64,000 bases of DNA from Lingula anatina. Lineage: Eukaryota; Animalia; Brachiopoda. How positions within the stretch are numbered: position 1 is the first letter of the stretch; the number at the start of each line of letters is the position of its first letter. A model generated the notes under the pieces. The model saw nothing but the letters and a program-made list of their open reading frames with translations. It did not search any database and was not told the DNA's origin. Shown piece by piece: positions 11,864 through 63,682 of the stretch. A program made the position numbers and the translations under genes. The stretch spans positions 31,998,401 to 32,062,400 of the forward strand of contig CM120641.1 of the NCBI GenBank assembly GCA_051362555.1. Reading direction: 5' to 3'.

Positions 11864-26348
<14,485 letters not shown>

Positions 26349-26728: not shown

Positions 26729-27100
26729 AGGCATCGTTCACATGGAAAGTCTATTTTCTAAAAATCTATTTTCTATTCGCAGTATCTTATGATCACGGTC
26801 TGTGCCCTGAATATCCCGCGGCGTAATTACTGGCAGCGCGAGCCAGTTACTTATACAAAGCTTTAATTAATTCTCGGCAAGTGCAACCGTCATGATCCGA
26901 TGGCAAGCGATGCGGCAGCGGAGGATGAGATTTTATAGAATGCGAGCACAGCCGAGAATTAATTACAGCTTTGGAAGTAACTGGCTCGCGCTGCCAGTAA
27001 TTACACCGCGGGGTATTCAGGGCACAATCCGTGATCAGAAGATATACCGCGAATAGAAAATAGATTTTTAGAAAATAGACTTTCCATGTGAACGAAGCCT
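26729..27100. mobile_element. Near-perfect 372-bp palindromic MITE (Harbinger-like) in the PMS2 first intron
   Basis: aggcatcgttcacatggaaagtctattttcta... / ...tagaaaatagactttccatgtgaacgaagcct with ~150-bp arms; 3-bp AAG duplication at 26726-26728 and 27101-27103. Confidence 0.85.
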
Positions 27101-37559: not shown

Positions 37560-38784
37560 GTACAGACAAAAAACAGAAAATAAAGATGCAAAATAGGTCA
37601 TTTTGTCAATTTTGATGCAATGATAAATAATGCTTATAATAGCACTGTCAGTCAACACTGAATTTTAATCATGCACAACTGGTAACATGGTCAATAACAG
37701 GAGTGGACCCAGAGATATTGCAAAATTTACCTGCATAATTATCACTGCTTCCTTATTATTAATCTAGCAGACTGGCTTAATCTTTGGGAGTTTACAGGGA
37801 AATATCAACAACTGTGCTTTATGTAATCTCATTTAATAACCTATTAATTAGGCAAATGACTTTATAACTCTGAACTTAGCTTAGTGACACCCAAGGGAAA
37901 TTCACAGACTGACCCTCTCAAAGGTCTTTCAGGCCCATAAGTCACATCTTAAGAAAAGCACAAAGTAATAATGCACAAAATAGGATGCTGTCAATTCTGA
38001 TGCAATAATATATTACGCTTTTAAGCAAAGTCAACATCAAATTTAAATTATGCAAAACAGGTAATACCGATGAAAGTAAAAGCAGGCCCATGAGAGTTCA
38101 AGTTCATACTTAGAAAATGCCAGAATGAGAAAAATGAGAATTTCACAAAATGTTGCGTTAATTCAATAAAAAATGATAATCCAATAGAGCTGGTTTTCTT
38201 ATTTGAGCTGTATGTCAATCCTAAGAATCATTCTTTTAAGCTAAAAACAATAATAAGTAACACAGTTTGCTTTTTATCATAACGTTTGTGATGACAGTGC
38301 ATGAAGTTGGCTTTTTGTCAATTTTGATGCAATATTACATAATGATTAACTATAATTACCACCATTTATTTTTATTAATAACGTGGTCATTTAGAAAATT
38401 TGATTACCACTGGGCTTCATGACCATGGGAGTTCCAAGTCCCACATTGAAAATGCCAATATATGAAAGATAACAACTTCACAAACATGTACAACAGAAAA
38501 AGAAACCAATTAGATTGCTTTTCCAACACAGGCTGCATTTTAGACCTGTGTTTCTTTCCTGTAAGTTTTAAGAAGAGTAAGTAACATGGTTTTTCTTTAA
38601 TGGTCACTATAAAAGCAGTGTCCAAAATAGAGGTTTCTTCATTTTTGTTGCAATATTAGATAATGCATAATGACCATCAATTTTAATAATGAAATAAAAT
38701 TATCATGGATATTCAGACTAGCAAAGGTCTTCAAACCCATGGAAGTTCAAAGTCACACCTTGAAAATGTCGATATGTGAAAAAT
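37560..38784 (+). repeat. Dispersed complex repeat family (probable large Helentron-like element)
   Basis: Colinear similarity with 59755-60830 and 62210-62720; hallmark ttttgatgcaatattacataatg also at 20400-21290; 7090-7395 matches 61690-61850. Confidence 0.8.
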
Positions 38785-42632: not shown

Positions 42633-42781
42633 GGGCTCCGTAACTAAAAAGCATCGCGTATTGCGAACGGCGATATCACATAGAGGCTACAGTGTATTAC
42701 ATGGGGCGAGCATGGGCAAGTAATGGAATCGAGACGCTTGCGCTCGGTCGCAATGCGCGCTGCTTTCGAGTTACGGAGCCC
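42633..42781. mobile_element. Short Harbinger-like MITE
   Basis: gggctccgtaactaaaaagcatcgcgtattgcga / tcgcaatgcgcgctgctttcgagttacggagccc inverted arms. Confidence 0.7.
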
Positions 42782-45699
42782 GGGAGAGCAAAGTAACGCA
42801 GCACCACAGCTTTGTATCCAAAAACCAAAATTCAACTCATTACCTGGACATTGGCTAGTTTTATGGAAGAAATTGGAGTGACAGAAATAGTGACGAGATT
42901 GTAAAAGTTTAAGTGAGAGGCGAAAGAGGATAATTTCTACTAATGATTAAACGAGCATACATGCGAGTCCATTTAAATTTATTTGCAAGTCTCGCTTTTT
43001 TTTAGCGATCTGTACACGACCACTTTTTTTACAAAAAAAAAAAAAAAAAAAAAAAAAAGAAGAAAGAAAATTATAGAATATTTTTTATTCAACTATTATG
43101 TACAATTTTGAATATTTACAGTTGATTTAAAAAGGACTAATAATCAGTAATGAACTACGTAAACGCAATGAATTAATACATAGCAGTATACTATATATTA
43201 TCAAAAGTTCCAAGATTTTCCATCGTCTTCATCTAGCGTCGGAACGCACACAGTCCGATAATGCAGGTCTTGTGGTCGGAATCTGGTACCAGATGCTCTC
43301 GGGCCGTGGGGAAAACCCCGTCTAAACCCTTCGTGGGGAATGCCGGGAAAGTGCCCACGCCCGGATAATTCGGTCCTTATAACATGACGAAATCGGTTTC
43401 TATTGGCACGGCGCTGCGTATAGTTCAAGAATCGTCCCGTTTTAGACAGCATTGTGTGACGGAATAACCTTTGTGTTGACTAACTATTCTCTATATATAC
43501 TATACACGAGGTGAAGCATAAAAACTTATTAAAGTAATTCTTACAGAAAAAGGCACTGAAGCCAATAAAAAACTAACAAGAGACATAACAATTAAACAGG
43601 ATCATTTTGACTTTATCTTGGAGAATTAAAACCATAAATAAAGTTAATCATTTTACAACTGCAAGCATCTTTCAAAACTTGATTATAGTTCTCTTTATGA
43701 TAAAATGCAAACAGATTCAAGTAATAAATATGATTATAACTCGGGAATATCAACGATTTCAACTAAACTTTGATATATAATTCGACTTAAAATACCAGGT
43801 TTCTAAAATGTAACTTTGCACTGAAATCGCAACTACCTGATACAAGTACAGAATAAAGCAAGCTTGCTTCAAAATATTTCGGATCTCACATTACACTGTA
43901 TGACCGCCCATGTAAATTTCAATCTGAATTTTTTTGATCCGGAGAAAAGGTGCATATGTGATGAAGTGGATGTATTTGTCAAGTATAACACTTGAGAAAA
44001 TCTGAATATTAGTAATGTGATCTCTATCTTGAGAGATGACAGCATCTCTCAAGAAGAGCAGACTGTACAAAAAATATAATGAAATATTTTCTCACACGTA
44101 AAATATTTCATTACAGATTTTGCACAATCTATCAATGTTAAATCTCTTCATGTAAAAGCGTTTACATGAAGTCAGATTTTACAAAGATGTGAGGGTTTGT
44201 TAGTAAGGTTAGTGTGCAGGTTAAGACCTTTTCAAATGCCATACTGACAAACAACTCCACATCATCAAAAGCACAAATTTGAAAAATGACCATCCCAGAT
44301 TGAAACAAAACACAGACGACCCCAAGTGGTGGGAATGTTTTTGTGAGCAAAAAACTATCTGCATTCAGGATGTGGATAAAGCAACTATATTCAAATTTAT
44401 TAATATAATAATTATAGCAACTGTAGAGGTAGACTTTTCCTACAGAAGCACACATCTTATTCAATTGATCTTGTATGGAATGAAGAATTATCTTGAACCT
44501 CAGTTTTCTCTTCTGTTATTGAAATAAAATGGTTCACTGCATTAAGGCATAAAATACAAATGAAATTTGATGCAATATTTCACCTTGACATGTTTGTGAC
44601 CCATGAACCCCAAATATTCTCAGCATCCAAAAGACTGATACATTATTAGACTGTATTCCCACTACATTCAGTACTGTATATTGCCTTCATTACCATTCCA
44701 CATTCTTTATATTTGTTTGCAGAACAAGCCGTGTCCTTCAACACCAAAACTCGTGGGATGTCCGAGCATCCATGAAAGTGTCCACAGGGCTCCTTGCTAA
44801 CGCTGTACAGTGTTCAACATCTTGGACATTTGGTCTTGGGTCGACGTTATCTGACATCATGCAGGCGTAATTATTGGAAAACTCCCAATTCGTAGCCTAC
44901 AAATGAAATCCAACTTTTACTCAAAAGTATGAAAAGCTATATCGAAAGCTTGCAGTAACTGCAACAAAGAAAGTATATCACTGGTATTTACACACCGTTA
45001 ACATTAATGAAAAGCTTGGTTCTTAAAATGATCAGAGCGTTATTTCCAAATGTACAATGAAATATGCTTCCTTTATTGAAATATATATATTAACTTTTTA
45101 GAGTAAGTAGACAGCAGTCTTCAAAAAATAAATTATTTCAAACATTTGACAAAAAAGTAAGAAAAGATGTTGCTATATTGAATATTGTAATGTTAGCCTA
45201 CATGTTAAATTGTTGACTGTCTGTGCTACTTCTAATTCTACTGTTTGTTTACATAGGATATAGTTTTTGATCACTGTCAATAATAAGAAATGCCATAATA
45301 CACCAATAATAATACTTAAAAAATTCAGAGCCACTTTTCTTAAGTTGTTGATCCCCAATAACTTACAAAGTTATCTGTATAAAGATCCCTCAATCCTGAA
45401 GAAGTGTTTCATCTGGAGGTTTGGTAGTTGCAATCTTGATTTTTAGAATCCACCACTTTTGGTAGCCTGCAAATTTAAATAATTACTTCAAAATGTAATA
45501 AAAGTCAACCATTTGTATATGAAATGTGTTTTTAAAGTTTCAGCAGTTTGATGGGAAATAAATATAAAAAGCACTTTTGTCACAAACTTGGAAAACACAT
45601 TCAAGCGAAATATTTTGACATGCCACTGGCGACCTTCAGACTTAATGTCACAATGGGGTATTGCACAAATTAGTTTTAACGAAGGAAAAGGAACACTAA

Positions 45700-46075
45700 C
45701 AGCATTTAAACGACTCTACTCAAAGACAAGTTTAAGTAAAGCCTGAACAATCTAGATCCAGCGGGAGGAGTGTACTAATATTCCATCAAGTGTTTAATTT
45801 GTGAAGGATTTATATGGGAGAGACAAAGAGAAAGTTGAACGTTAGAGTTAAAGAACACAGGAAGGAATAAGAAAGGGTACCCGAAGAGGGAAAAATACAC
45901 TACAGCCCAAGGTAGCCTTCTGCTACAACGAACCATCACAAAAAAACATTGATTGGGAGAGTGCCAAGATTCTACAAAAAGAAAGTGACTGGAGAACAAG
46001 AGGCGTAAAGGGAGGCATATAAACCAGGAAAATGCCTAACAATCTGAACAATATAGAGAGATGGAAATAAATACT
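45700..46075 (+). mobile_element. Penelope-like GIY-YIG remnant
   Basis: Frameshifted GVY.I..C..C...YMGETKRKLNVRVKEH...IDWESAKILQKESDWRTRGVK. Confidence 0.7.
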
Positions 46076-46149
46076 CACTTCTACGGTGGCCTTTTATTAC
46101 CACAACCACAGCACTGGAGGTGGGGGTGGTAGCTGCTAGTATACAATTT

Positions 46150-46788
46150 CTGGACCAGTGACAACGTCCCGGAGTCACATTGGTGGTGGGTGTTGGGGGC
46201 GGTAGCTCCAAGTAATCTGGACCAGTAACCATGCCCTGGAGTCACATTGGTGGTGGTGGGGGCGGTAGCTCCAAGTAATCTGGACCACTGACCACGCCTC
46301 GGAGTCGCATTGTTGGTGGTGAGTGGTGGGGGCGGTAGCTCCAAGTAATCTGGACCACTGACCACGCCTCGGAGTCACATTGTTGGTGGTGGGTGGTGGG
46401 GGCGGTAGCTCCAAGTAATCTGGACCAGTGACCACGCCCCGAAGTCACATTGGTGGCGGTGGGTGGTGGGGGCCGTAGCTCCAAGTAATCTGGACCAGTG
46501 ACCACGCCCCGGAGTCACATTGGTGGCGGTGGGTGGTGGGGGCCGTAGCTCCAAGTAATCTGGACCAGTGACCACGCCCTGGAGTCACATTGGTGGTGGT
46601 GGGTGGTGGGGGCGGTAGCTCCAAGTAATCTGGACCAGTGACCACACCTCGGAGTCACATTGGTGGTGATGGGTGGTGGGGGCGGTAGCTCCAAGTGATC
46701 TGGACCAGTGACCACGCCCTGGAGTCACATTGGTGGTGGTGGGTGGTGGGGGCGGTAGCTCCAAGTGATCTGGACCATTGACAACGTC
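46150..46788. repeat. 70-bp GC-rich tandem repeat, ~9 copies
   Basis: Unit ctggaccagtgaccacgccctggagtcacattggtggtggtgggtggtgggggcggtagctccaagtaat; one copy is shortened. Confidence 0.95.
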
Positions 46789-48232
46789 CTGCAGAATATT
46801 GAGACTGTTGAGGATCTGAAAGTTGACGAATGGCATGTCAAAATATTTTGTATGAATGATAAGGTTTTTCCACATATGTGACAAATAAAAAGAGCTTTTT
46901 ACCTGTGAAAAATGAGCACTGAATTTGCTAGAGTAAATTGTAAATAGAAAACAAATGCCTGTCCCAAACATTCTTAAAACAATTGTCTAAGACCTTGCAC
47001 AAAATGCTCAGTTTGTTGGAGTTGCACTGATAAAAGATTTGTATTATCTATACAATGAATGACAATCTAGTTCATTTACCCTTATCCTGTCCCATAACTT
47101 ACCTTGAATGCTCTCTAATCACAACTACTGAAGGGCTCTTGAAACACTATGATATAGCTGACATGGCTTTCTCCATTTTAGCCTTGTTAACCTTGTTAAA
47201 ATGGACCGTCATCAGGACAGGCGCTCGCCAATGCTATCTGCCTCCACTACAAAATAAAAAATTATAAGTCAAAAGTTTCCCTCTTTACTTCTCCCACCCA
47301 AATCCAATCTACTAACCATAAATATCTTAATCCTAGGAGTGGGTCATGGGTAAAAGACATTGCCTTCTGAATGTGAGCTGTCAAATTAATGTGGCTAACG
47401 GTTTTTAGTTTTTCAAGGTATGAAAAATCACTTAAGTGTTTTGTTTTCCCCCAAAAACATGAGTGATATGTACCTTTTAAGGCTTGATAGGTTTCCACCT
47501 CTGTGAAACGCCATATGCTTCTGATGCTCCCCCATGCAGCCCCCTAACGTACAGACCATGGCAGGACAACCATGCACCAAGGATTGAATGTGACCCTCTT
47601 CTTGCACCTCTTTCAAAAAAGCGGGACTTTATCAGGAATTGCCCTAATTGAGTTCTGTAAATAGAAAGGAAAATTTGATTAGTTTTCAAAAATTGTATAT
47701 CAAAAGCAGTCTGCAGCCAGAAAAATTGTTGGAATCGGTAGATTTCCAGAATGTGTCAATTTGGTGACATGGCTGTTAGATTTTTTCTATAAGTATGAAG
47801 AAGAGCTTTTGATTTATTTTAAATGTAACTGTTACATCATGATTTGAGAAAAATGTCGAGGTCTTGTTAATACAAATATTAATGCAATCCAGTCTAGTCC
47901 TATTGAACTTTGTATTCGAACCAGTGAATCAAGATTCAGACATCTATATCTAGTTTTTAGGAAAGAAGGTGGACTGAATGGCCAGTAGGGTGAAAAGTTT
48001 ATGGCACAGACTGCTGCTGAAAAATTAATTTTAGTGTATTGTTCTCGCCTGTAACACGGGTTACCTTGCAGGTTTTTCCGCCTCAGTGAAACACCATATG
48101 CTTCAGACGCTTCTCCAATGCAGCCTCTTCAACAGACCGTGGCATGACTCACTGGCACCAAGGATTGAGGGATGTATCAGAAGTGTGCATGTGGCCCTCT
48201 TCTCCTTGCAGTTCCCATGAAACGTTGGACAG

Positions 48233-48606
48233 GACTCGCTGGACGCTTCCTAGTGCAGCCACCTCGTAGTCAGACCATGGCAGGACTCGCTGGACGCTTC
48301 CCCAGTGCAGCCACCTCGTAGACGGACCATGGCAGGACTCGCTGGACGCTTCCCCAGTGCAGCCACCTCATAGACGGACCATGGCAGGACTCGCTGGACG
48401 CTTCCCCAGTGCAGCCACCTCGTAGACGGACCATGGCAGGACTCGCTGGACGCTTCCCCAGTGCAGCCACCTCGCAGATAGACCATGGCACGACTCGCCG
48501 GACGCTTCCTTAATGCAGCCACCTCGTAGACAGGCCATGACAGGACTCACTGGACGCTTCCCCAGTGCAGCCACATCAAAGAGACAGACTATGGCAGGAC
48601 TCGCTG
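48233..48606. repeat. 52-bp tandem repeat array A, 7 copies
   Basis: Unit gcaggactcgctggacgcttccccagtgcagccacctcgtagacggaccatg; markers at 48233, 48284, 48336, 48388, 48440, 48492, 48544, 48598. Confidence 0.95.
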
Positions 48607-48776
48607 GCACCAAGGAATGGTCAAAGTAGCTTAAGTGTAGATGTGGGACGTCTCCTTGCAGTTGTGTTCTGTCAACAGAAAGAAAAATGAATTAATGACT
48701 TTTCATACTATGTCAGCACTCTGCAGTCAGGCTTACCTTTAAGTGGTTTCCATCTCATTGAAACACCATATGACAA

Positions 48777-49150
48777 GACTCGCTGGACGCTTCCCCAGTG
48801 CAGCCACCTCGTAGACAGACCATGGCAGGACTCACTGGACGCTTCCCCTGTGCCGCCACCTCGTAGACAGACCATGGCAGGACTCGCTGGACGCTTCCCC
48901 TGTGCCGCCACCTCGTAGACAGACCATGGCAGGACTCGCTGGACGCTTCCCCAGTGAAGCCACCTCGTTGACAGGCCATGGCAGGACTCGCTGGTCGCTT
49001 CCCCTGTGCAGCCACCTCGTTGACAGGCCATGGCAGGACTCGCTGGATGCTTCCCCAGTGCAGCCACCTCGTAGACAGACCATGGCAGGACTAGCTGGAC
49101 GTTTCCCCAGTGAAGCCACCTCGTAGAGAGACCATGGCAGGACTCGCTGG
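48777..49150. repeat. 52-bp tandem repeat array B, 7 copies
   Basis: Same unit; markers every 52 bp from 48777 to 49141. Flank 49151-49225 duplicates 48608-48685. Confidence 0.95.
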
Positions 49151-49211
49151 CTCCAAGGGATGGTCGAAGTAGCTTAAGTGTAGATGTGGGGTGTCTCCTT
49201 GCAGTTGTGTC

Positions 49212-50380
49212 CTGTAAACAGAAATAAAAAAGAGATTAGATATCTTTCATTTCTCAAACTCCCCTTCCAAAAAGAAAAAAGATTACATACCTTAAGGAGT
49301 GTAGTCGAAGTCCCACAGGTGGCACCCATCATCTTCTATGTCCTGTAAACAGAAATAAAAACGAGATTAGATTTCTTTCATTTCTCAAACTCCCCTTCCA
49401 AAAAGAAAAAGATTACATACCTTAAGGAGTGTAGTCGAAGTCCCACAGGTGGCGCCCATCATCTTCTATGTCCTGTAAACAGAAATAAAAACGAGATTAG
49501 ATTTCTTTCATTTCTCAAACTCCCCTTCCAAAAAGAAAAAAAAGATTACATACCTTAAGGAGTGTAGTCGAAGTCCCACAGGTGGCGCCCATCATCTTCT
49601 ATGTCCTGTAAACAAAAAATAAAAACGAGATTAGATTTCTTTCATTTCTCAAACCCCCCTTCCAAAAAGAAAAAAGATTACATACCTTAAGGAGTGTAGT
49701 CGAAGTCCCACAGGTGGCGCCCATCATCTTCTATGTCCTGTAAACAGAAATAAAAACGAGATTAGATTTCTTTCACTTCTCAAACTCCCCTTTCAAAAAG
49801 AAAAAAAGATTACATACCTTAAGGAGTGTAGTCGAAGTCCCACAGGTGGCGCCCATCATCTTCTATGTCCTGTAAACAGAAATAAAAACGAGATTAGATT
49901 TCTTTCACTTCTCAAACTCCCCTTTCAAAAAGAAAAAAAGATTACATACCTTAAGGAGTGTAGTCGAAGTCCCACAGGTGGCGCCCATCATCTTCTATGT
50001 CCTGTAAACAGAAATAAAAACGAGATTAGATTTCTTTCACTTCTCAAACTTCCCTTCCAAAAAGAAAAAAAGATTACATACCTTAAGGAGTGTAGTCGAA
50101 GTCCCACAGGTGGCGCCCATCATCTTCTATGTCCTGTAAACAGAAATAAAAACGAGATTAGATTTCTTTCATTTCTCAAACTCCCCTTCCAAAAAGAAAA
50201 AAGATTACATACCTTAAGGAGTGTAGTCGAAGTCCCACAGGTGGCGCCCATCATCTTCTATGTCCTGTAAACAGAAATAAAAACGAGATATTTCTTTCAT
50301 TTCTCAAACCCCCCTTCCAAAAAGAAAAAAAGATTACATACCTTAAGGAGTGTAGTCGAAGTCCCACAGGTGGCGCCCAC
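49212..50380. repeat. ~131-bp tandem repeat, 9 copies (exon+intron cassette on the minus strand)
   Basis: cttaaggagtgtagtcgaagtcccacaggtggc starts at 49291, 49421, 49554, 49686, 49818, 49950, 50082, 50213 and 50342. Confidence 0.95.
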
Positions 50381-50736
50381 CAGTTTGCAGTCTGCTTCCT
50401 GGACCTGTAATAAAAAGAAACCTGGAAAGCATGGGAATATGCAATGACACTACGACTCCAGCCCACGACAGCAAAAAGGTGAAGTATCCTGCGAAGATGA
50501 CCGAGCGACGATTCCTCCTGGGGAGAAGCGAAGATTTTAGCTGGCCAGCTAAGAGAAACGCCGAATCCACCGTCTAGACGTCTACGTGTGCAGGGAACAA
50601 TATGTCGAAGAGCGATGCGTTGACGTAGGATGAGTAGAAGATTCGGAGAAATGGGAGTCGACTCCCGTGTCCTTTGTGCTTGATACAGGGCGCAGCACAT
50701 GGCATCCGTCCTGTTGCTCTAGGTCTGTCCGCTGTT

Positions 50737-50818
50737 GAGTGAACGCACTTTTAAAATTTTGCGCTTTTATACCTTTGTTGACGTATAGTCACATGATGGT
50801 GTTCTTGTTGTCACCAAT
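50737..50818 (-). promoter_or_regulatory. TATA/Inr core promoter
   Basis: Minus strand: TATAAAAG begins 31 nt upstream of the A in TTCACTC; a CCAAT element lies at 50814-50818. Confidence 0.6.
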
Positions 50819-51983
50819 GGTCAACTTGTTCAAAGGGGATGGCCTTTGATAGTGATGCGCAAAGTTGGTAATAATATCTTATCAACATATACATTTTCTT
50901 TTATATTTTGATTATTCTGCCTGTCAGTTTGTTTATAATAGGAGTAATAAGTTCTAAGCAATGTCTGCGAAATGTGCAGGCAAATTTGATGAAAATTTCT
51001 GAGCAACATACCTTCTCCCTAAAATTTTTATAGGTACGATGTCCGTTAAGCTGGTAGCTGTGAACTTCTCGCAGGCTACTTTAGTGTGCGTGTATTTGAA
51101 CACTGATCCAAAATGTGAATAATGTAATTTGGCGTAGGGTGACTGCATTTTTGAGGCAGCCTGAGGGAGTATGGTTGTTCTGATTGTAGTGAATTGTAGA
51201 GAGACAATTGGAAGTACACTGGACTTAGCATGTTCAGTCACCCAAGTACTCTGAAACACATTTTGTAATCAGCTGACTTGTTATTCTGAAAAATGAAAAA
51301 ACAAATTATATTGATTTACAAAACTGGAAGACAGAAGCAGTGGATCATATTACTAATGCCAGGCAGAAGAAACGACTGAATGTAAATTTTTATATTCAAA
51401 ACGTCTACTGATTTAAAATATTTAAAATATTTAAACTTCCCATACTTTGAGGCATGCATGAGTCGGAAAATGTTTGCATAATTACATAAAAAACTAGAAT
51501 TATCTCTTTATGTGACCACAGTTTACTCATGTGCCTTACATCATTCCCTTAAACCCTTTCCCAATATCGATTTCAGATATTTTTGACACATTTTGTCTTC
51601 ATCTGAATCACGTGAACGTTATCAAGTGTCATAAGGCGTACATTACGAAAATATTTAGGTCTTGGAACGTGATTTGATGACTTTTTTAAATGCATATATA
51701 TACAATTATAAATTTATAATTAAGTTATTTAATATCAAATTATAAGTTCTGACCGAGTTTTAAAATTTATTTTAGGAGGGGTAAAAAAACCCAACCCCAT
51801 CTAATATATATTGGATACATCCGTAGGCTTATGTCCTTAGAACTAGGCGTTCAAAATGTGTCTTCTAGCTAAAGTTATTATTATGGTGTATGTGTAATTA
51901 AAAAAAACTACGTAAGAGTGACAATAGGTCATGTGTTTCGAATGCACCCCCACTCTCCGATCAGACATTACTTTTGTATAATT

Positions 51984-52764
51984 GGGGTCCGCCATATAGA
52001 TAAACGTCCCAATAAAATATTCGCCCCGATAGATACGTCTCTATACATACACGTCTCAATAGATTTACGTCTCGTTAAATTTACGTTCCGATAGATCCAC
52101 CAACAGATTCCTATAAACCCACGTATCTTTAGATCCAGGTACCGCTAGATCTATCTATCTGACATCGTAATCGGCTAAAAGGCCCATATCAACTTGCGTT
52201 GTGAAATTTAGAACACATTTTTATGTTCTTTTTTGTTTTGTTTTGTTAAGAACACATTTACATGTAAATTCAGAACACTTTTTACGTGTTCGAATGTTGC
52301 ATTTTGAGAACGCTTTAAACAGTGTTCTGACGCTAGAACAGTAATTAAGCGTTGTGAAATATAGAACACACTTTTGTTCTTTTTATGTTCTTTCACTGAG
52401 TATTGTGTGAAAACGATCTAGTAGAATAATATATTGCTGACTGCATACTGCCGTTTTAAAGAAGTGCATTTTATGTACTGAGTAGTATACCAACCATTTC
52501 GAGCAATAGTGTACCTGTAATGGATCTATCGGTATTTGGATCTAAAAATACGTGGATCTATAGGTATGCGGATTTAAAGGACGTGGGTTTATGAGGACGT
52601 CATATCTATAGGAACGCAAATATATAGGACAGCAGAAAAAAATCGGATCTATCGGTATTTAAATCTAAAAAGATGTTTTTTCCGTTTTTCCTTTATGTAT
52701 CTATCGGTAACGGGAGTATAGGGACGTGTAATATTTTGGGACTAAATTTTATCCGTACGTACCC
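51984..52764. mobile_element. Foldback-type (MULE/FB-like) element
   Basis: Inverted modular arms (atagat..acgtc / gacgt..atctat); 8-bp duplication gtataatt at 51976-51983 and 52765-52772. Confidence 0.75.
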
Positions 52765-54414
52765 GTATAATTCACAGTCCATCTTCGTTGTAGTTTGTGA
52801 CTTTACGTCATTTCTTAGTGAAGCGGTGTTGTCCTCAATTTACCTTAAATGTCCAAATTACTAAGAAGAAACCACTTGCAAGAATTATAAGGCTTTTTAT
52901 ACTGCTAGGTCTATAGACGTGATACACACGATATCTTGCAACCCCACAAAATCTGTTTCTTAAAATTTTGGTTCCACCACAAAGCTTAGCACTATCATTC
53001 TTTTTTGCTTTATTGATATATTTTCAGTACATAAATAACCATTGTCTGTTGCCCAATTTTGCACAAAATTATTAAGATAATCCCCAAAACCTCATTAATT
53101 GTGTTTCCTCCATCCCAAAAAATATTAAAAATTTCTCCTCATAATTTAGTAGTGCACTGGCATCTACACAGTACATAAATGTATCATTATAATAACATCT
53201 TGTTCTTACTGATAACATAATTAGCTTAATTCCATAACAATTCTAAAATATTAATAACAATGAAAATTCAAAGTAGATGGCAAGATTCTTATTGTGCTGA
53301 TAAAGATAAAATATGTAAATTCAATACTGATTAGGTACTGTATACTGGCTCATTGAAAAAAGGGAACCGTTTCACAAAAAAATTAAGCTTAGACTGCTAA
53401 ATCTGGATAGCCAACTATACAAAGTCAACTTTGCGACATTGTCTTACAACTACAATTTTTTAAGAATGATTGGTCCACAGTTGATGAGTAGAATATACAT
53501 AAATGGGCTACTGACACCACTGCAAGTAAAAGACTTGCCAAGACAATCAAAATGTAAATCAAAGGAAAGCGAAAAGAAAGTAAAAAGACTGGAAAAAATG
53601 AGGCAAAATTGATAACTTGGTTAATGAGCGAACAATACTCTAGTTTTGATTAAATCAGAACTTTTCTTGCACCTTTTCTTGGGGAATAGGGGATTGGTGT
53701 AGTGAAAGCCCAACCTTAACCTTTGGATGCTATTCTCATTAAACATATGCATAAAAGACAAAATTTAGACCACAAATAGATTCATGCAATCTACCAACCT
53801 TTTTTACAGTGAGTCATTGCAACTTATCAGTTATTTCTGGCCTAGGCTATCTGTAAGATTCTTACAACTGTGAAGTGCAACTTAGCCAGCTAAGTCTTTA
53901 TAGGCTCAGATTTTAGACTACAAACCAGCTTCAAACATTTAGTAAAGCAAGTGCAAGGAATAGTTAGTTTGAAGGCTCTGTCTCCCCATAGGGTGAGAAC
54001 AAACACAGTCACACTGTATGATACATTACAGAAAACATTGGTTAAAAATATACTCTGGAATTTTACATTTTCACTAGTATAGAATCAATTTGATTTCTAA
54101 AACTGACTTATTATAAAAATACTCCTGTCAATTTAAAACTTTTTCATAAAGCATATCTGAGATACACTGATAAAATGTTATTAAAAATATTAAAATTTGA
54201 TATTCACAGATAAAATAGGCTCAAGTCAAAATGATTAAGACAATTATTGAAGCATTATTCAAACCCCAATTTTGATTATTTTCATACAATTAGTGATTCA
54301 CAAGTTCTTTAACAGAGTTGTACCTAATCTGACTACATGATATCTATCAAAATCTCTCTAAAATCAAGTGACAAAAAATGCCCACAGTTTCAAGCACCAT
54401 AAAATATGGCTTAA

Positions 54415-55990
54415 GGGATCTTGGATATTAACGAAAAAGTCCAAAACTAATGCAGCTAATGAAATTTCCTATTAACTTAAAGAAAAGGTCTAGCAAGCCA
54501 AACAATTTTTCAAAGTTTGTAGTCACAGTGTAACACGAGTGACGTAATATCAGCGTTTTGAGGCTAAAATTGTCTTTTTTTCAATCAAGAATTTCTCTTA
54601 AACAAAAAGCCCTATTAATACGATTGAAATAGCTATCTAAAGGTTAGCACAAACTCCTTTAAACTCTGTCAGGATTTTCTCTTTTTATTTTTACTTTTGA
54701 TTTTATTTTGATAAAACGTGAATTTTACGAAATATATATGGACCTTCCAATTTCAGTATTAATAACTTCAAAAATAAAAGGTCAATCCAAAAACCAAGAC
54801 TCAGACGACTAGATATTATACTGAAACAGAGACACATCAAATTTCATGTCAATCTGACAGTTACAGAATAAGATATGGGGATTGAAGTTTAGACTATGTT
54901 ATCAATCTTCAAAGCTGAGAAATCGCCCCTAAACCATTTTGCTCAGGTAATTGGGCTATTTAAGCAAAATAATTGCACCTCCACCTTACCTGTTATCATC
55001 ATGTTGATCGGGAAGGTCTATACACCATTACGTGTTAAAATTGGGTTGTTTGTTTCTATCTAGATGCCAGAAAATCTTACTTTTGTATGCAAACTTATTC
55101 GTACCACGAAAGTCGCTCTTCCCTGGGAAATGATTGACAGCTGAGTAGGTCTACCTACTCTCGTTTCACTGACGTAATTAATCATAATTGTGCCTGACGC
55201 AGTAGGAGTCTGTGCGCTGTCTAGGAAGTGTCTAAGGAAGCGCTTACAAACAAAAAGAGGATTACTTGGTGTGCCAGCAGAGGACAATGCCACCCGTCGT
55301 GCGTGGGCGCCGCTCTACACACCAAGACGCGAAAATTGAGAAAGTAAAGCAAGATTTACTCCGAGAAATGGCCGAATGTGGGTACGTATATGCCATGATG
55401 CCACACAGTGCCAAGACCGTAATATGCGAATTTGAAAATGTTTTGGGTGGCAATATTACTTTAAAACTTGCTTGCTATTACAATCTTTATTGTGCATAAA
55501 ATGATTGCCTAACGATTTTTTTTCTGACAACCCCAGACGTTGTACGAATACTCAGCAGTTCAAGTGTGATCTCGAGTCTTTACCGCGGGGTTTCTCCATC
55601 CACCAGAAGCACTCTCTTTCAAAATTCTCTTGCTTTCCTCGCTCATCCGTTTTCTCACGACTTTCTTTCTTCCCATGACTGTGTATATAACTGTGTTCTG
55701 CTTAGCTGACGTAAGACTTATGAGCTGCCAGGGCACGCGTAACAGCTTAAGAAGTTAGACAACCATTCTTGCCCCGCCCCCCATAGTAACGGTGCTTGAC
55801 AACGGAGGCGGAGCCTAAAGCCTGCCACCCGTACCAGTCAGGACAGGTAGAAAAACTCGTCCAAATGTATATTTTTAGTCCGTGTTTCACAAATATAACT
55901 TAATTGAGTATTAGATACAAAATTGATTATTTCTAACGTATAAAAAACTAAAAATCGAGTTTTAGACGTATTTTTAATATCCTAGACCCC
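54415..55990. mobile_element. TTAA-specific DNA transposon (Kolobok-like), non-autonomous
   Basis: TTAA at 54411-54414 and 55991-55994; TIR gggatcttggatattaa / ttaatatcctagacccc; CpG-rich core with short ORF remnants. Confidence 0.75.
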
Positions 55991-56306
55991 TTAAGTAAGT
56001 AATATCCTCAATTGTTTCATAATAAACGTCATGTCACTTGAATGTACCATTCTCCAGAAAAAAAGATGAACTTGCAAGGTTTGATAAGTCTGCGTTTACA
56101 GGTAGATGTCATAGTTTAATATACATGAGGCAGCTTTATATCGTGGTCAACAATATTATATTATATCAGTTTCTCTAGCCTCCATGTCTTATTCGTCATA
56201 ATATTTTGATTTTCAAATTCAGGGTCCCCTAGTAAAAGATCTTGCATTTCCTCTTGATCACAGAAGAATCTGAGTTGAGAATACAGTTGAGAATACAGAG
56301 TTAAAA

Positions 56307-56412
56307 TTAGGCCTCTCCTCTCCACTCGGGGTCCTCTTGCAACTGAACCTGGCTGACATCCATGGTTACATCTTGAAAAATAATATATTCCCAAAAAAGT
56401 TTTAAAGGTGCA

Positions 56413-56450
<38 letters not shown>

Positions 56451-58994
56451 TAAAATCAATAAATCTTGGACACATTACTTGTCGTACGTCTGAATAACAT
56501 GACAGACAAGAAGAAAATAGTTGCTCTTGAAAATGGACTTTAAGTAATGAAAATGCAAGATGACAGCTAGTAGACAGTACATGTGCATGCAATTTATTTG
56601 AAATTCTGACTTTTCAGTTTCATTTAACAGTCTGTCTGAACTAAAACATGGTAGCTTTCTCTTTTTAATCTTTCTATCCTCTGTTTTTTTTTGTCAGTCT
56701 GTCTGAACAAACATTAAAAATTTAATTTATGAACTTTATTAAATCCTTAACATTTCTTTTTTTGTTGGTTTGTCTGTCTGTCTGAACAAGAGCTCTTAGA
56801 AACAATGAGATTAAATAAAGATTAAATAAAGGAAAAAAAATTTTGAACCTAACATGGCTGATTTGTGTTTGGTTTGAAAAAGTCTTATAATTTGATTGAA
56901 CTTTTTTTGCTTACTGATCAAATAAATTAAAATAATTCACTTCACCTGTTCCAATGTTTATCTTGCGAAAGAAGAAACGGATCCCCTACAACAATCAATA
57001 GGGCCTTTGCTCTTGTGATCGACACATTAAACCTCTGAAAAAAAAATTAATCCCACATGTAACTGTATGTGCGGGTGAACACTGAAGACAGTATAGTCTG
57101 AGACTAACTGTTCATATCTCTTCTGTGAATTCCGCATCACATGGCATAGTCTCTGCAGTGCCATAGTGGAAAGAAATGGTGATGAAAATAGTATGGACTA
57201 TAGCTGTTTAAATAACCTTACATTTCAAAATATGTGTGTGCACATCCACATGTACAAAGTCTTATGAATTATGTGTTCACGCATGTACACATGCCACAGC
57301 ACAATCATGGTAATGACACTATCTTTTCAATGGGCAAAAATTATCAAACTTTCAAATGTATACCTTTATAAACACATAAAGTATATAGTATTAGTGGTAC
57401 TCTTACTGCACAGATTAGAACTATAGAGTAGCTTACTTTTTTATTCTGTTGTGACCATCCAATAGGAATTGGGTAGGAGTATCAAAATTTTAAAAATTAA
57501 TGGCCTAAAAAATACCGCATCTGTAAAATTCACGATTTCCCCCCCCCCACTGAAAAAAATCAAGTTATTACCATATGCTGAGGTGGCACTAGCAATTTTT
57601 TCTAAAGCCAAATTACTACTTTTTCATCACTTTTTTCTCCAAAATGGTTTAAATTTGACTAAAATAAGTCAAATAAACCCTATTTTGTTTAGCCAATTGA
57701 AGTCAGTTTTAGCATTTGGCTTAATTGGGCAGTGTTAACTCTACCCCAGTTTGTGTGTCCACATGCATAAGTGTGCATTTACAGGCCCGTAACCAGCAAT
57801 TTCGAAAGGGGGTTTCTTTTTCTGAAAAAGTGGACCTTTTTCCATAAAAACTTCATGTACCTAGATCAAATTTTACCCACAGTGGACCTTTTCCCAGCAA
57901 AAGTGGCAGTTCTTTAAAACCCCCGAACCCCCCCTGGCTACGCGCCTGATTTAATACTCATCCGTTACATTCAGCATTTACTTTATCTTTATCTTATTTT
58001 ACTAGTAGTTAGCCATAACTCTGAACAGGCTGCATATTGTTAGTACATTACATTATAACCAAGCTCAGGTGGATTAGTAATTGAATTTGCCATGTGAGAT
58101 GGGAGTGAGCAAATTCGCCACAATTTTAATTTTAATTTTTTAAATTTTTCTTTATACTTTATCACATGTACACTTCTGTAGTTAAAGTAGGACTTTTCAT
58201 AAGCCTAACAGTACCATATCTATAACATACTATTAACTCAGATGTATTGTGGCTGTACTTTAAGGTAAATGGAATGTTGGACCTTTAAAGAATGTTGACT
58301 ACTGGCTCTTTAGAGCTACGCCGCATTCTTAGAATCTATTGCCCTAACTCAGCAAAAAGGCCCAGTTAATAATTGTAAACAAATTTGCAAAGTTTTACTA
58401 GGCAGCTTCAATTAATTGGCATTTGGCGTAAAGCCCGATTTGATATTGCAAACTGTTGTTAGTAACTTGAAAAGGGAGAGGGACTGGGGAGGGGTTGCCT
58501 GTATTCATCATGGAATAAGCTCTGTCATATTTCCCTCACTTGTTTTCTGTAGGGGGAAATAATTCCAATTTCATTCTGCAAGACTTGAATGCCTCTGGCC
58601 TCCAGTAGCTTCTCCACATATCCCAACACAATAGTTGCTTCTTCTGGATTGAAGAATGATGGACTCCTTTCCTCCCTCATGTCCTCCCCAACCACTCCAT
58701 GGAATACAAAGGGACACCCCATTTTTGGTAAACCTTCCCAGTTGCAGAGGGACTCCCTGGCAAGTCGGTCAGCACAGGCTTCTAGCTCATTGTCGTAGAA
58801 CTGTTCGTTTGGAAGCTTGAGGATAGCAGGATGTGATCTGTAGTTTTTGAGGAGTTTTGTAAGGAGGAATGGGTTGTAATGGCCTTGACGTTGGTACAGT
58901 ACATCTTGATCGTCGTCATCTGAGCCAGGACTCGAACCACCCCTCTTCTTGTACACATCACAGTAGGTCTTGTATCTTTCTAAGAGTGAGAGTC
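56307..58994 (-). CDS. MOV10: MOV10-like SF1 (Upf1-like) RNA helicase, 3' exons; upstream exons lie beyond the window
   Basis: Exon 58540-58994 (LSLLER...TKLLKNYRSHPAIL...FHGVVGEDMREERSPSFFNPEEA...IGIISPYRKQ), exon 56946-57034 (RFNVSITRAKALLIVVGDP...W), possible 11-nt exon 56479-56489, last exon 56307-56371 (QLQEDPEWRGEA*, resembling the MOV10 EPEWRNEL end). Expected intervening exons were not found. Confidence 0.88.
57782..57948. mobile_element. Small MITE (partial relative at ~25964-26045)
   Basis: TIR caggcccgtaaccag / ctggctacgcgcctg; attta on both flanks. Confidence 0.7.
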
Positions 58995-59754
58995 CTGTAA
59001 GACATTAAAATAATGAGACATTTCATATACATGTATAAATATATAAATGAAGTTATTCTTTATCAAAGAAACTAAATAACTATGAGGTTCAAAAGGTTTT
59101 AATTTCACCATTATATGTACAAAAGAGATGAAAGAGACATTTTGTCAATGCTTAAGTACAAAATCTCTACTACCACATGTAAAAGTATTTCAGTGTTTGC
59201 AATTTACCAGAGCTTATAGAACTACCAAAAAAAACTGATCCTTGTCAAAACCTAGTCCTAGTCAAAAGAAAGACTTTCTTTTGTCAAATTTAAAATTATT
59301 GAAGGAATAATTCTGGGCACATCCATAGCAGTAAAAATGTTTCATAATTGCATTACCTTTTATTTTACTTAAATCTTAGAAGCAGAAATCACTGGTCAAT
59401 AAAAAGCTTTTAGAATAAGTCCTACATGTATATGATTTTACCAGACTCTCAAACACCTTTGTAAATATTATAGTTAATCATAGTACTTTTGTCCACAATT
59501 TTCAACTTCACTTTTCTTTTAGTCATAGTCTTATTTCATTTTTATTTAAGCCCAAGGTAGTAATGTAACTTCCCCTTTTAATGCATTTCATAACACATAC
59601 ACTCACACACACTGGCAGATTAAAACTTTACTATTACTCATATTATCATTTTTATTATAATGGCTGTTGGGGGCATATTATTATAATTAAATATATTAAA
59701 AACTATTATAATTATAATTATATACATTAAAAACTTATTTGCAATATAAAACAA

Positions 59755-62700
59755 AATTTACCTGCATAATTATCACTGCTTCCTTATTATTAATCCAGCA
59801 GAGAGCTTAACCTTTGGGAGTTTACAGAGAAATATCAACAAGTGTGCTTTATGTAATCTCATTTAATGGCCTATTAATTAGGCAAATGACTTTATAACTT
59901 TATAACTTAGCCTAGTGAGACCTAAGGGAAATTTACAGACTGACCCTCTCAAAGGTCTTCAGGCCCATAAGTCACACCCTTAAGAAATGCACAAAACAAT
60001 AATGCACAAAATAGGAGACTATCAATTCTGATACAATAATACATTGTGTTTAACTGCACAGTCAACATCAAATGTTTTAAAATTATGCACAACAGGTAAC
60101 ACCGACGAAAGTAAAAGCATAAGGCTTCAGGCCCATCAGAGTTCAAGTTTATACTTAGAAAGTGCCAAAATGAGAAAAATGAAAATTTCACAAAAAATGC
60201 ATAAATTTAATAAAAGTGATAATCTAATAGAGCTGGTTTTCTAATACCGGTATGAGCTGTATGTCAATCCTAAGAATCATTCTTGTAAGACACGTTGAAA
60301 AATTAGAAAGTAACAGTTTTCTTTCTATAACGTTAATGGTGGCAGTGTACAAAAGAGGTTTTTTGTCAATTTTGATGCAACATTACATAATGATTAACTG
60401 TATAAATACCACCAATTTTTAAATATCTACTATTAAAAACATGGACATTAAAAAAAGGTGATTACCACTGGGCTTCATGCCCAAGGGGGCTCTAAGTCCC
60501 ACATTGAAAATTCCAGTATGTGAAAGATAGAAATTTTCACAAAAAAACCTCTATAACTTCCAGAAAATTAACTAATGAGACAGATTTTCCAACTGAAGCT
60601 GTATTTCAGTCCTATGTTTCTTTCCTTTAAGTGTAAAAAGAGCAAGTGACATGGTTTTCCTTTCACGGTCACTAAGGAGGCAGTGCCTAAAATAGGGTTT
60701 TGTTCAATTTTGATGCAATATTACATAATGCTTAACAGCATAATAACCATCAGTTTTTTAATGATAAAATAAAACTATCATGGATATTCACAAAATGTGT
60801 CTAGCCCATAGAGTTCAGAAACACTTTGAAAATCCCAAAATCTAAACAAGAGAAACTGTATTAAAAAGAGTTTATTTCCATTTTCAATACCTTTTTTACA
60901 TGAAAAAAAATAATTGATTTACTGTCATTTTTATATGATCAATTAAAATATGTTGTCAAAGGAAAAATATCAATAGAACAAATTTAAATGCCCAACTTGC
61001 TCCATTCTGAGATTCTTAACTTAGTGAATGATTGAATCTGATGAACTTCAATGATATGAGTTCCCTTCCATTTTTGATACTTTATTACACAATGCACAAT
61101 AAAAGGTGTACTGTCATTTTTATATAATCAACTAACAATATTTTTAAGAAGCAGAAAATGTCAAAACAACACTTTTACATATCTAATTTGTTCCATATTG
61201 AGACTGTTAACATGCCTAAGAATTAAATCTGAAGAAAAGCCACTTATATGCAATAAGGCTAATAACTTCATCAAAACTTAACTGATCAAGCTTATTTTCA
61301 AACTTGATCTGTATATTAGTCAGACTGATCACTCCTGTAAGTTTCAAGACAAAAGGCTGATTGGTTTTCCTTAAAATGTGTTATCAGTGTTGCATATATG
61401 CTGAATAATGGAAAAAAACAGCATAACTTTAAATTTGTAAAAATAGTCCAATCAAGCCAATTTTCGAACTTGACCTGTGTATTATGAATGTTCATCAGTT
61501 CTGTAAGTTTCAAGCCAAAAGGTAAAATGGTTTTCCACTTATCGTGTTATCAGTGCTGCATATGTGCTGAGAAAATGCAGAAAATGGTTCATTTTGTTAA
61601 TTTTGATGCAATAATAAATCATGCCTACAATAGCACTGTCAATCAACACTGAATTTTAATCATGCACAACAGGTGACATCGTCAATAACAGGAGCGGATC
61701 CAGAGATATTTTCTGACAGTATTCCAAATTATCTTTGTTGATCCATCCTACATTTTTGATGGTCTTCCAACAGAAAAAAAAACAGATACCCATCAATATG
61801 AACTTTAAAATCTGAAAGACCCAGAAGACAGCCTCAATCCACCCCTGCAATAAGATTACAGTTTCAACTTTCAGGACCAAATTCACATAATGAAAATCCC
61901 AATATTTGAATAATGATGACAATGCATAAAATAATATTACATAATGTTTAAAGACATAAAAACCAATGCAACTGTTTATGTGGAAATACAGAGAATGTGA
62001 AGAGCTTCAGGTGGATGGGAGCTGAAAATGCCAGTGTTTGAAAAATAAATTAAAAAGAAAACACAACAAAAATATCCCATTAAAGCTGCTATTCAAACTT
62101 TTAATCTTGCTGTAATAACATGATATGAATAACCCCAATGTGTTTGAGGATAATAAGGCACTGTTATTCAAATTTTTTTCTTTTGTTAACTTATTTGCAA
62201 TATTAAACAACATTTACCTGCATAATTATCACAGATTCCTAATTATGTGACACAGTTAAGAGAGCTTAACCTATGGGACTTTACTGGGAAATCTCAACGT
62301 GTGTTTTATGTAATCTTATTTAATGGGCACTTGGAAATTAATTAGGCAAATAGCTCTGAATTTAGCTTGTGACTACCCAAAGGGACAATTACCACCATCC
62401 ATAAACAGTAGCCCCATATAGCACTCTATGGAGCTGCATTGCTTCCAGAACAGAAAACAATCACTCTGATTTTCCAACACAAACTGCAAGTCAGTCTTAC
62501 AAAACTTTTCAGTAAGTTTGAGTATCATAAGTAACATGGTTTTTCCTTAATGGTCATTCCGGCAGCCATTTCCAAAATAGGGTTTTCTTCAACTTTTATG
62601 CAATATAACATAATGACCATCAATTTTTAATAATAAAATAAAAGTATCATGGATATACAGAAAATGTGACATGGAAAGGTCTTCAAGGCCATGGAAGTTC

Positions 62701-63682
62701 AGAGTCACACTTTCAAAATGCCAAAATGTACCTGTATACAAGAGATAACTGTATTGAATTGATTTTCTTCCATTTTCAACACCTTTTTTCCATATAACAA
62801 AGTAATCAATTTACTGTCATTTTTAAATGAACAACTGAGAAAATTGTTGACATAGGAAAAATATCAATAGAACAATTTTAAATGTCCAGTTTGCTCCATT
62901 CTGAGATTCTGAACATGGTGAATGATTGAATCTGACAAACTGTAAAGATATGAGTTTATTATTATTTCCATTTTTTGACACTTTATTACACAATTACAGG
63001 TTTACCATCTTTTTTATATAATCAACTAACAATATTGTTAAGATGCAGAAAATGTCAAAAGAACACCTTTACATATCTAATTAGTTCACAGATGAGATTG
63101 TTAACATGCCTAAGAATTAAATCAAAGGAAAAAACACTTATATACAAAAAAGGCATAACTTCACCAGAACTGAACCAATGGAGCTTATTTTCGAACTCCA
63201 TCTGTATTTCAGTAAGACTGATCACCCCTGTAAATTTCAAGACAATTGGCCAATTGATTTTCCTTGAAATGCGTTATCGGTATTGCATACATGCTAAAAA
63301 AAGTGAAAAAAGAGCATAACTTCCATAAAAATGGCCCGATCATGCTGATTTTCGAACTTGACCTGTGTATTATGTATATTCATTAGTTCCATAAGTTTCA
63401 AGCCAAAAGGTAAAACGGTTTTTCACTTATCGTGTTATCGGTGTTGCATATATGCTGAAAAAAGTGAAAATACAGCATAACTTCCATATAGATGGCCATA
63501 TCATGCTGATTTTCGAACTTGACCTGCATATTATGAAAGGTCATCAGTTCTGTAAGTTTCAAGCCAAAAGGTAAAACGGTTTTTCACTTATCATGTTATC
63601 GGTGGTCAAAGTGCACGGCGACGACGACAGACGCAGGTGATGGCTACATGTGCAGACACATCTGTGTCTGTACATAAAAATT
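59755..63682 (+). mobile_element. Large Helentron-like composite repeat in a MOV10 intron, with internal duplications
   Basis: 60600-61560 recurs at 62470-63600; ~165-bp units at 63300-63600; ends in hairpin gcagacaca-tc-tgtgtctgtacataaaaa, also seen at ~21264-21290 and ~27241-27260. Confidence 0.7.

What the first reader, a model, noticed from the sequence alone, without database searches (positions are those of the whole stretch)
49212..50404. Tandem array of nine complete exon+intron cassettes that would build a ladder of overlapping uORFs
On the minus strand every ~131-bp unit has a strong donor (AAG|GTATGT), a ~78-81-nt intron with a CTAAT branch point (altered in one copy), a pyrimidine tract and a TACAG|G acceptor, then a 52-nt exon (GACATAGAAGATGATGGGCGCCACCTGTGGGACTTCGACTACACTCCTTAAG). 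Length variation falls in the intron homopolymer runs; the exons stay 52 nt. Each exon has a stop in all three frames but also AAGATGATGG. Once spliced, each ATG would open a 30-codon ORF (MMGATCGTSTTLLK|DIEDDGRHLWDFDYTP*) that ends in the next cassette. Only the last cassette's ATG runs in frame into the open 475-nt exon 48737-49211 (~184 aa in total). Inference: a copy-number or splicing-tunable uORF/poison-exon device, a repeated micropeptide, or a source of identical short intron RNAs. It could also be a neutral recent expansion.
Basis: partly seen in the sequence, partly recalled or inferred. Interest (0 to 1): 0.8.

Follow-up and report, generated by a model that had tools for sequence, protein, structure and literature searches.

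The report
Repeat-built, mostly unspliced brachiopod RNA
In a lamp shell (Lingula), one short exon and its intron stand head to tail about nine times at the front of a polyadenylated, likely non-coding RNA; reads show most of these introns left in place, so the array likely acts as a repeated RNA element rather than as a ladder of small peptides.

Summary
The array is real: nine 77-81-nt GT-AG introns and eight 52-nt exons; the ninth 'exon' is the end of a ~400-nt first exon. The animal is a Lingula brachiopod; the locus matches RefSeq's uncharacterised LOC106172600 beside MOV10. PolyA reads show minus-strand transcription starting near a TATA box at 50771, at depth fitting about 8 units per molecule. 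The splice sites are used, but only 8-31% of unit boundaries are spliced, at least partly piecemeal. No frame looks constrained: the exon-1 ORF is broken by two 1-nt indels, downstream repeats are 52 and 70 nt, relatives are Lingula-only predictions, and 17 AUGs precede the last cassette's. The uORF ladder is not supported. Best reading: a lineage-specific repeat-built lncRNA, likely kept in the nucleus by its retained introns; a neutral expansion is the main rival. One hint of constraint: diverged animals differ about 1-2% in the unit against about 6% in flanks (rough). The scan noted a similar exon-intron satellite in another genome, without RNA data.

The parts
50765..50771 (-). TATA box (TATAAAA), 31 nt upstream of a TCA at 50740, the predicted start
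   Evidence: sequence; X1 depth 12.3, 8.07, 0.66 in bins 50402-50608, 50609-50815, 50816-51022 fits a start near 50740; exact start not mapped
50342..50740 (-). First exon, ~400 nt; last 38 nt are the start of the repeat; holds an unconstrained ORF from ATG 50700 (RefSeq LOC106172600 prediction)
   Evidence: 1-nt frameshift against RefSeq near 50413 and a 1-nt deletion at 50637 in 8 of 15 X1 reads
49212..50379 (-). Tandem array, period ~131: introns 50341-50265, 50212-50134, 50081-50002, 49949-49870, 49817-49738, 49685-49606, 49553-49473, 49420-49343, 49290-49212; 52-nt exons 50264-50213, 50133-50082, 50001-49950, 49869-49818, 49737-49686, 49605-49554, 49472-49421, 49342-49291
   Evidence: transcribed on the minus strand, mostly unspliced
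49212..49290 (-). Last intron of the array; predicted 10-12-bp hairpin covers the pyrimidine tract with the branch-point motif in its loop (same stem predicted in the other copies)
   Evidence: skipped in 5 X2 reads, CT..AC on + strand; folds, predicted only
48737..49211 (-). Following exon (475 nt) with ~7 copies of a different 52-nt repeat
   Evidence: transcribed on the minus strand, depth 130-150 on one unit in X1-X3; its donor at 48736 is predicted
48669..48736 (-). 68-nt intron, retained in at least some reads
   Evidence: 9 X3 reads run from the next exon's start into this intron (loose end at 49230, matched by eye)
48065..48668 (-). Predicted exon, duplicate of the module 48737-49211, with ~7 more 52-nt repeats and an older second module
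   Evidence: self-alignment 89%, module alignment; reads matching its variants seen; donor 48064 predicted
47474..47654 (-). Predicted exon, oldest copy of the same module
   Evidence: 76-78% identity to the other modules, alignment; no reads laid
46149..46786 (-). 70-nt tandem repeat (~8-9 copies) in a predicted further exon (donor 46078, AATAAA at 46098); membership of the same RNA untested
   Evidence: no reads laid

Best explanation
The array is the 5' part of a polyadenylated minus-strand RNA that is likely non-coding and Lingula-specific; reads show its nine short introns mostly retained, and the retained block of repeated splice signals likely holds the RNA in the nucleus as a repeat-bearing lncRNA instead of yielding peptides. 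Shown: transcription, strand, a start separate from MOV10, about 8 units per molecule in other animals, a spliced minority at the exact GT-AG sites, broken frames. Inferred: (1) the 131-bp unit grew by unequal exchange, and 52-nt frame-shifting exons were tolerated because no protein is made; the gene has done this repeatedly (module duplications, 52-nt and 70-nt arrays). (2) Splicing is slow despite consensus sites because a predicted hairpin covers each pyrimidine tract, and/or spliced molecules are under-counted because their short ORFs send them to nonsense-mediated decay. (3) Nine unspliced donors and U-rich tracts per molecule would bind U1/U2AF-type factors and block export.
For: Strand and start: X1 depth 89.2 vs 2.3 by mate orientation, same orientation as MOV10; zero depth at 51437-51643 in 4 of 4 runs. 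Retention: intron depth 127-146, 179-201, 81-94 against exon depth 144-150, 214-222, 98-104 in X1, X2, X3; spliced boundary share 9/107, 21/156, 9/63, 9/29 in X1, X2, X3, X9; control: 96 X1 reads spliced at MOV10's last acceptor. Units per molecule 7.6 and 8.7. Non-coding: two 1-nt indels in the exon-1 ORF; repeat periods 52 and 70; a stop-free 52-mer arises in 12% of shuffles; protein relatives with real similarity only among Lingula predictions, singletons at 90% identity; no convincing Pfam match. Hairpin: predicted unpaired share of the tract 0.09-0.17, 1st-6th percentile of 97 acceptor-like sites of the window. Constraint hint: in the diverged run X9 about 30 of about 50 array reads are at least 95% alike, fitting 1-2% divergence, against about 6% for reads over 50195-56400. 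Repeat-rich exons that confer nuclear localisation are described for Firre (PMC4820808, passages read); lncRNAs are often poorly spliced (PMC6344860, passages).
Against: Nuclear localisation, factor binding, NMD and any function are untested. The nine copies are one sequence, so the hairpin percentile is a single observation, and whole-intron fold z-scores are not significant; PMC6344860 found secondary structure not a major determinant of lincRNA splicing and strong donors with T-rich tracts to favour splicing. Variants in other animals fall in exon and intron alike (46 rows not shown). The conservation contrast is rough: my aligner differs from the tool's, flank reads include transposon copies from elsewhere, and exon 1 is CpG-rich (0.065 vs 0.023 per nt). 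Related loci exist on three other scaffolds of L. anatina, so some reads on the downstream repeats come from paralogues. No DNA run was laid, so intron-less DNA copies are not excluded as a source of joined reads. RefSeq predicts a 132-136-aa protein here, and its two isoforms differ by in-frame (3- and 9-nt) indels.
Confidence: 0.5

Rival explanations
1. Neutral minisatellite in a transcript without function: a small exon plus intron was amplified by slippage or unequal exchange in a young, repeat-prone non-coding locus; splicing is sloppy because nothing selects for it.
For: Units 96-97% identical; the locus holds three unrelated arrays and nested duplications; variants hit AUG and stop codons of the exon in other animals (3-nt deletion at 49332 in 4 X3 reads, 49338 in 7 X1 reads); nothing found outside Lingula.
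Against: Defined TATA-linked start, about 97% strand purity, roughly 2-12 RPKM in four runs; copy number about the same in other animals (7.6 and 8.7); unit seems less diverged than flanks in X9.
Confidence: 0.3
2. One reading: spliced cassettes build overlapping uORFs or act as poison exons that tune a downstream 184-aa protein or the RNA level through NMD.
For: Splice sites are used; spliced share differs between runs (8% X1, 31% X9; intervals 4-15% and 15-51%); both cassette AUGs have A at -3; NMD could hide spliced molecules; skipping from exon 1 to a late cassette cannot be seen with short reads.
Against: Most RNA unspliced; no conserved main ORF; 17 AUGs before the last cassette; exon-1 ORF frameshifted between haplotypes; no internal start site listed (table 6).
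Confidence: 0.08
3. Precursor of small RNAs (piRNA/endo-siRNA type), in which stalled or suppressed splicing routes the transcript into small-RNA processing (mechanism recalled from other animals and fungi, not from a call).
For: Repeat-rich, poorly spliced, multi-locus family; level varies strongly between runs (X4 about 1 vs X1 about 89 on the unit).
Against: No transposon sequence recognised in the transcript; antisense reads only about 2-3%; no small-RNA data laid.
Confidence: 0.07
4. Host gene that releases nine near-identical intron RNAs (mirtron- or snoRNA-like).
For: Architecture resembles repeated exon-intron host genes (recalled); introns are 77-81 nt and near-identical.
Against: No Rfam match at gathering or E<=1 in the array; two short hairpins with unpaired ends instead of one long one, z -1.5 to +0.2; no C/D or H/ACA boxes seen; introns mostly not excised; introns vary at least as much as exons.
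Confidence: 0.05

Closest known systems
Firre lncRNA with exonic local repeat RRD (PMC4820808; 12 of 25 passages read)
   Same: Spliced non-coding locus built of local repeats; one repeat makes up many exons (7 of 13 human, 11 of 23 mouse); lineage-specific sequence.
   Different: RRD is exonic only and was shown to be a nuclear-localisation signal binding hnRNPU; here the repeat unit is exon plus 80-nt intron, head to tail, about 97% identical, and mostly unspliced; no sequence relation was tested or is claimed; localisation unknown.
Poorly spliced lincRNAs in general (PMC6344860, three passages read; PMC5204342, listing only)
   Same: Polyadenylated, modestly expressed, incompletely spliced, no conserved ORF.
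   Different: In that study strong donors and T-rich tracts go with efficient splicing; here both are strong yet 69-92% of boundaries stay unspliced.
Repeated exon-intron host genes of intronic small RNAs, such as SNHG14/SNORD115-116 and the C19MC cluster (recalled, no call)
   Same: Tandem exon+intron units with frame-shifting exons in a non-coding transcript.
   Different: No small-RNA payload found; introns far shorter and mostly retained.
RefSeq gene LOC106172600 of Lingula anatina (XP_013408834.1, XP_013408835.1)
   Same: The same locus: consecutive accession to MOV-10 on a scaffold of the same length; first 96 residues 99% identical; its model splices exon 1 to a cassette.
   Different: Annotated as an uncharacterised protein; the frame is shifted in this window and in 8 of 15 X1 reads at a second site; the array is not described in anything I found.

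Membership tests
Long intergenic non-coding RNA with local repeats (Firre-like) | Transcript over 200 nt, polyadenylated, own start, not overlapping a coding gene | tested here: met
   PolyA and oligo-dT reads over 49095-50800, minus strand, gap to MOV10; 3' end not mapped
Long intergenic non-coding RNA with local repeats (Firre-like) | No constrained open reading frame | tested here: met
   Frameshift polymorphisms, non-triplet repeats, Lingula-only singleton predictions; translation itself not measured
Long intergenic non-coding RNA with local repeats (Firre-like) | Repeats confined to the locus | tested here: inconclusive
   131-nt unit only here within the window; the downstream module has relatives on three other scaffolds; no genome held
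Long intergenic non-coding RNA with local repeats (Firre-like) | Nuclear localisation driven by the repeat | not testable with these tools
   needs fractionation, FISH or a reporter
uORF-regulated mRNA | A conserved main ORF downstream of the uORFs | tested here: not met
   184-codon frame has no relative outside Lingula predictions
uORF-regulated mRNA | The uORF-bearing spliced leader is the main RNA form | tested here: not met
   8-31% of boundaries spliced; upper bound 15-43% fully spliced
Poison-exon / NMD-coupled regulation | Spliced stop-bearing form rises on NMD block and controls a productive isoform | not testable with these tools
   no NMD-inhibited library identifiable; no productive isoform found
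Mirtron or snoRNA host gene | Intron folds as one pre-miRNA hairpin with paired ends, or carries C/D or H/ACA boxes (criteria recalled) | tested here: not met
piRNA precursor | 24-31-nt 1U small RNAs from the locus | not tested
   no small-RNA run among the 9 listed

The most novel reading that the evidence does not exclude
A brachiopod nuclear lncRNA whose functional domain is a conserved, copy-number-stable stack of about nine deliberately retained introns: each unit offers a perfect donor and a hairpin-masked acceptor, so one molecule parks many early spliceosome factors, and release by regulated splicing (8% to 31% between samples) switches it off through decay. This would be a repeat domain made of splice sites themselves, in a phylum for which my searches found no characterised lncRNA.
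Probability: 0.15. Interest if true: 0.7.

Novelty: new variant of a known kind. Interest (0 to 1): 0.38.

Why it matters
It is a clean, RNA-supported case of an exon-plus-intron unit expanding as a minisatellite inside a living transcript, and shows that textbook splice sites can stay 70-90% unused. If the unit proves conserved and the RNA nuclear, it gives a natural test of whether stacked unspliced introns serve as a retention or scaffold domain, and a first repeat-type lncRNA candidate in brachiopods. If neutral, it is still a useful warning: RefSeq calls a protein here that is frameshifted between animals.

Tried and rejected
Whole genome: none held, so genomic copy number and paralogues could not be searched. 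Indexed RNA holders: none was listed; the nine raw-read runs came by species label; 6 of 9 were laid (X1, X2, X3, X4, X7, X9), X5, X6, X8 were not. Reads were laid on one unit at a time (50195-56400 and 49095-49360), so all copies pile on it and single introns cannot be told apart; 43000-49094 has no direct read evidence. Rfam: 0 at gathering over the window; one chance hit outside the gene at E 0.93. Pfam on 15 ORFs: only MOV10, ECSIT and dymeclin pieces pass cut-offs; three sub-threshold hits on the 175-aa ORF are repeat artefacts. Of 11 hits in the 1.8-billion search, 2 are Lingula predictions; 9 at 22-31% identity were set aside as period-52 matches (6 of the 9 sequences viewed). ESM Atlas gave no answer. 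A 24-nt exon motif had 0 exact matches in viral and metagenome contigs. The plus-strand 211-aa repeat ORF was rejected: transcription is about 97% minus strand. An upstream exon 51285-51012 spliced to the AG at 50405 was considered and rejected on reads. Read-through from MOV10 rejected (zero depth at 51437-51643). No terminal inverted repeats flank the transcript among the 25 longest of 87 pairs shown. The bacterial promoter scan is not applicable. Literature: no paper holds the four LOC ids; 0-2 irrelevant papers for tandem-exon/lncRNA term sets; 20 of 32 listed for Lingula + lncRNA, none on a Lingula lncRNA; PMC13121700 main text has 0 hits for five terms, its supplements were not looked at and could list the gene.

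Full report
Observation. Tandem Repeats Finder gives an array at 49208-50379, period 132, 8.9 copies, 97% matches. On the minus strand there are nine donors AAG|GTATGT and nine acceptors TTACAG|G, introns of 77-81 nt and eight 52-nt exons with one variable column. The first intron lacks the CTAAT motif. The most upstream 'cassette' shares only 38 nt with the unit.

Setting. No genome is held. The window carries dymeclin, ECSIT and MOV10 pieces. The MOV10 exon is 97% identical to Lingula anatina MOV-10, so the animal is a Lingula. The ORF from ATG 50700 matches one cluster only, L. anatina LOC106172600 isoforms X1 and X2, whose accessions follow MOV-10's on a scaffold of the same length. The RefSeq protein ends in the sequence of a spliced cassette, so that annotation also uses these sites. 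Downstream lie two exons with a different 52-nt repeat, older copies of the same module, and a 70-nt repeat. The downstream module has predicted relatives on three other scaffolds (LOC106164805, LOC106153014, LOC106173768).

Expression. Nine raw RNA runs of the same species label were offered; six were laid. In stranded X1 the unit has depth 89.2 against 2.3 by orientation, the same orientation as MOV10's 3' end; depth is 12.3 and 8.1 in the two bins upstream, 0.7 in the next, and 0 at 51437-51643 in 4 of 4 runs. This fits a start near 50740, 31 nt behind TATAAAA at 50771, separate from MOV10, whose UTR ends near 53050. X4 has depth about 1 on the unit. Rough levels are 9, 12, 6 and 2 RPKM in X1, X2, X3, X9. 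Unit-boundary reads per exon-1 link read are 7.6 (X1) and 8.7 (X2), so other animals carry about the same copy number and the array is not an assembly artefact; intron variants seen among the window's units recur in reads.

Splicing. Intron depth is close to exon depth (X1 127-146 vs 144-150; X2 179-201 vs 214-222; X3 81-94 vs 98-104; X9, both orientations, 28-37 vs 46-48). Exon-to-exon joints number 9, 16, 9, 9, and the last intron is skipped in 5 X2 reads with CT..AC ends; unspliced unit-to-unit joints plus short overhangs number 98, 135, 54, 20. The spliced share is 8%, 14%, 14%, 31%; these counts have unequal detection windows and rows under 3 reads are not listed. If splicing were all-or-none, at most 15-43% of molecules are fully spliced; if independent, practically none. 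An X2 joint with 66 letters on its shorter side needs retained introns on both sides of a spliced one, so some splicing is piecemeal. The 68-nt intron 48669-48736 is also retained in 9 X3 reads. As a control, 96 X1 reads are spliced at MOV10's last acceptor. Joined reads were not checked against DNA runs (table 5b not given).

Coding. The exon-1 ORF is shifted by one base against RefSeq near 50413 and by a 1-nt deletion at 50637 in 8 of 15 X1 reads. Against this, RefSeq's two isoforms differ by in-frame 3- and 9-nt indels; gene predictors favour open frames, so I give this little weight. The 175-aa genomic ORF that contains most of the 184-codon frame finds 3 proteins among 305 candidates, all Lingula predictions, and 11 in 1.8 billion, of which 2 are Lingula and 9 low-identity repeat matches. 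Its openness is unremarkable: 12% of shuffles of the 52-mer are stop-free in all frames. In a spliced RNA 3 exon-1 AUGs and 14 cassette AUGs precede the last cassette; by ordinary scanning (established knowledge) the 184-codon frame would hardly be reached. In unspliced RNA the cassette AUGs give 25-52-codon ORFs that differ with homopolymer length. Other animals carry exon changes that remove an AUG or a stop.

Why introns stay. All five array introns folded show a 9-12-bp stem that pairs the purine middle with the pyrimidine tract; predicted accessibility of the tract is in the 1st-6th percentile of 97 acceptor-like sites of the window. This is one sequence counted nine times, whole-intron z-scores are not significant, and a human study found structure not to be a main factor (PMC6344860, passages). 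Decay of the spliced, short-ORF forms would give the same steady state. Both are inferences.

Constraint. X7 and X9 come from animals more distant from the window: 342 of 527 X9 reads over 50195-56400 are 90-95% alike, which fits about 6% divergence, and X9 reads at 50584 in exon 1 carry at least 7 other differences. On the unit, about 30 of about 50 X9 reads are at least 95% alike to a copy that itself departs from the consensus, which fits 1-2%, and no fixed difference from the array consensus is among the rows shown (46 rows hidden). This is suggestive only, for the reasons given under evidence against.

Comparison. It works most like a repeat-built, poorly spliced lincRNA; Firre is the best-described case of exon-forming local repeats with a nuclear-localisation role (PMC4820808, passages). 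It meets the transcript and non-coding criteria; localisation cannot be tested here. It fails the tests for a uORF-controlled mRNA and for a mirtron or snoRNA host. What differs from the known cases I read is that the repeat unit is the exon plus its intron and is mostly left unspliced. My searches found no description of the locus; most subscription papers and all supplements were not seen. Place and sequence look-ups returned nothing.

Verdict. Observation largely right, uORF ladder not supported. Non-coding repeat-built transcript about 85% likely; a role for the retained array about even against neutrality. Interest 0.38.

Noticed in passing
window 56310-59000, minus strand: The MOV10 gene lacks two internal exons of the L. 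anatina protein (about residues 966-1022 and 1053-1091) in all six frames of the window, yet 96 X1 reads splice from the last exon into sequence matching the second one. A deleted haplotype or an assembly fault; residues 400-812 are also not found up to the window's end.
   Followed up: partly
window 54410-55995: 1.58-kb element with 22-nt terminal inverted repeats and TTAA at both ends inside the MOV10 3' UTR; 166 X1 reads skip it, so likely an insertion polymorphism of a DNA transposon (Kolobok-like termini, recalled).
   Followed up: partly
window 51023-51436, plus strand: Opposite-strand reads (X1 depth 14.8) just upstream of the TATA box, with a go-back joint and loose ends at 51415; divergent transcript or reads from a related locus.
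   Followed up: no
window 49096-49117 (loose ends): Reads carry 52-nt-repeat and module-end variants not seen in the window, resembling the predicted proteins of three other scaffolds: a small family of related repeat transcripts.
   Followed up: partly
P0036 / P0037 (RefSeq isoforms X2, X1): The two 'isoforms' differ by substitutions as well as indels in exon 1, which suggests two copies or haplotypes of the first exon in that reference; the window has one.
   Followed up: no
window 37721-38767, 59752-63604, 20686-21294: Dispersed blocks of a ~161-bp satellite-like repeat, 67-80% identical.
   Followed up: no
window 26729-27100, 7854-8153, 42633-42781, 52067-52676: Long palindromic or inverted-repeat elements, MITE-like.
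   Followed up: no
window 19639-19754, minus strand: 21-nt in-frame repeat (5.5 copies) within an open frame in the dymeclin region.
   Followed up: no
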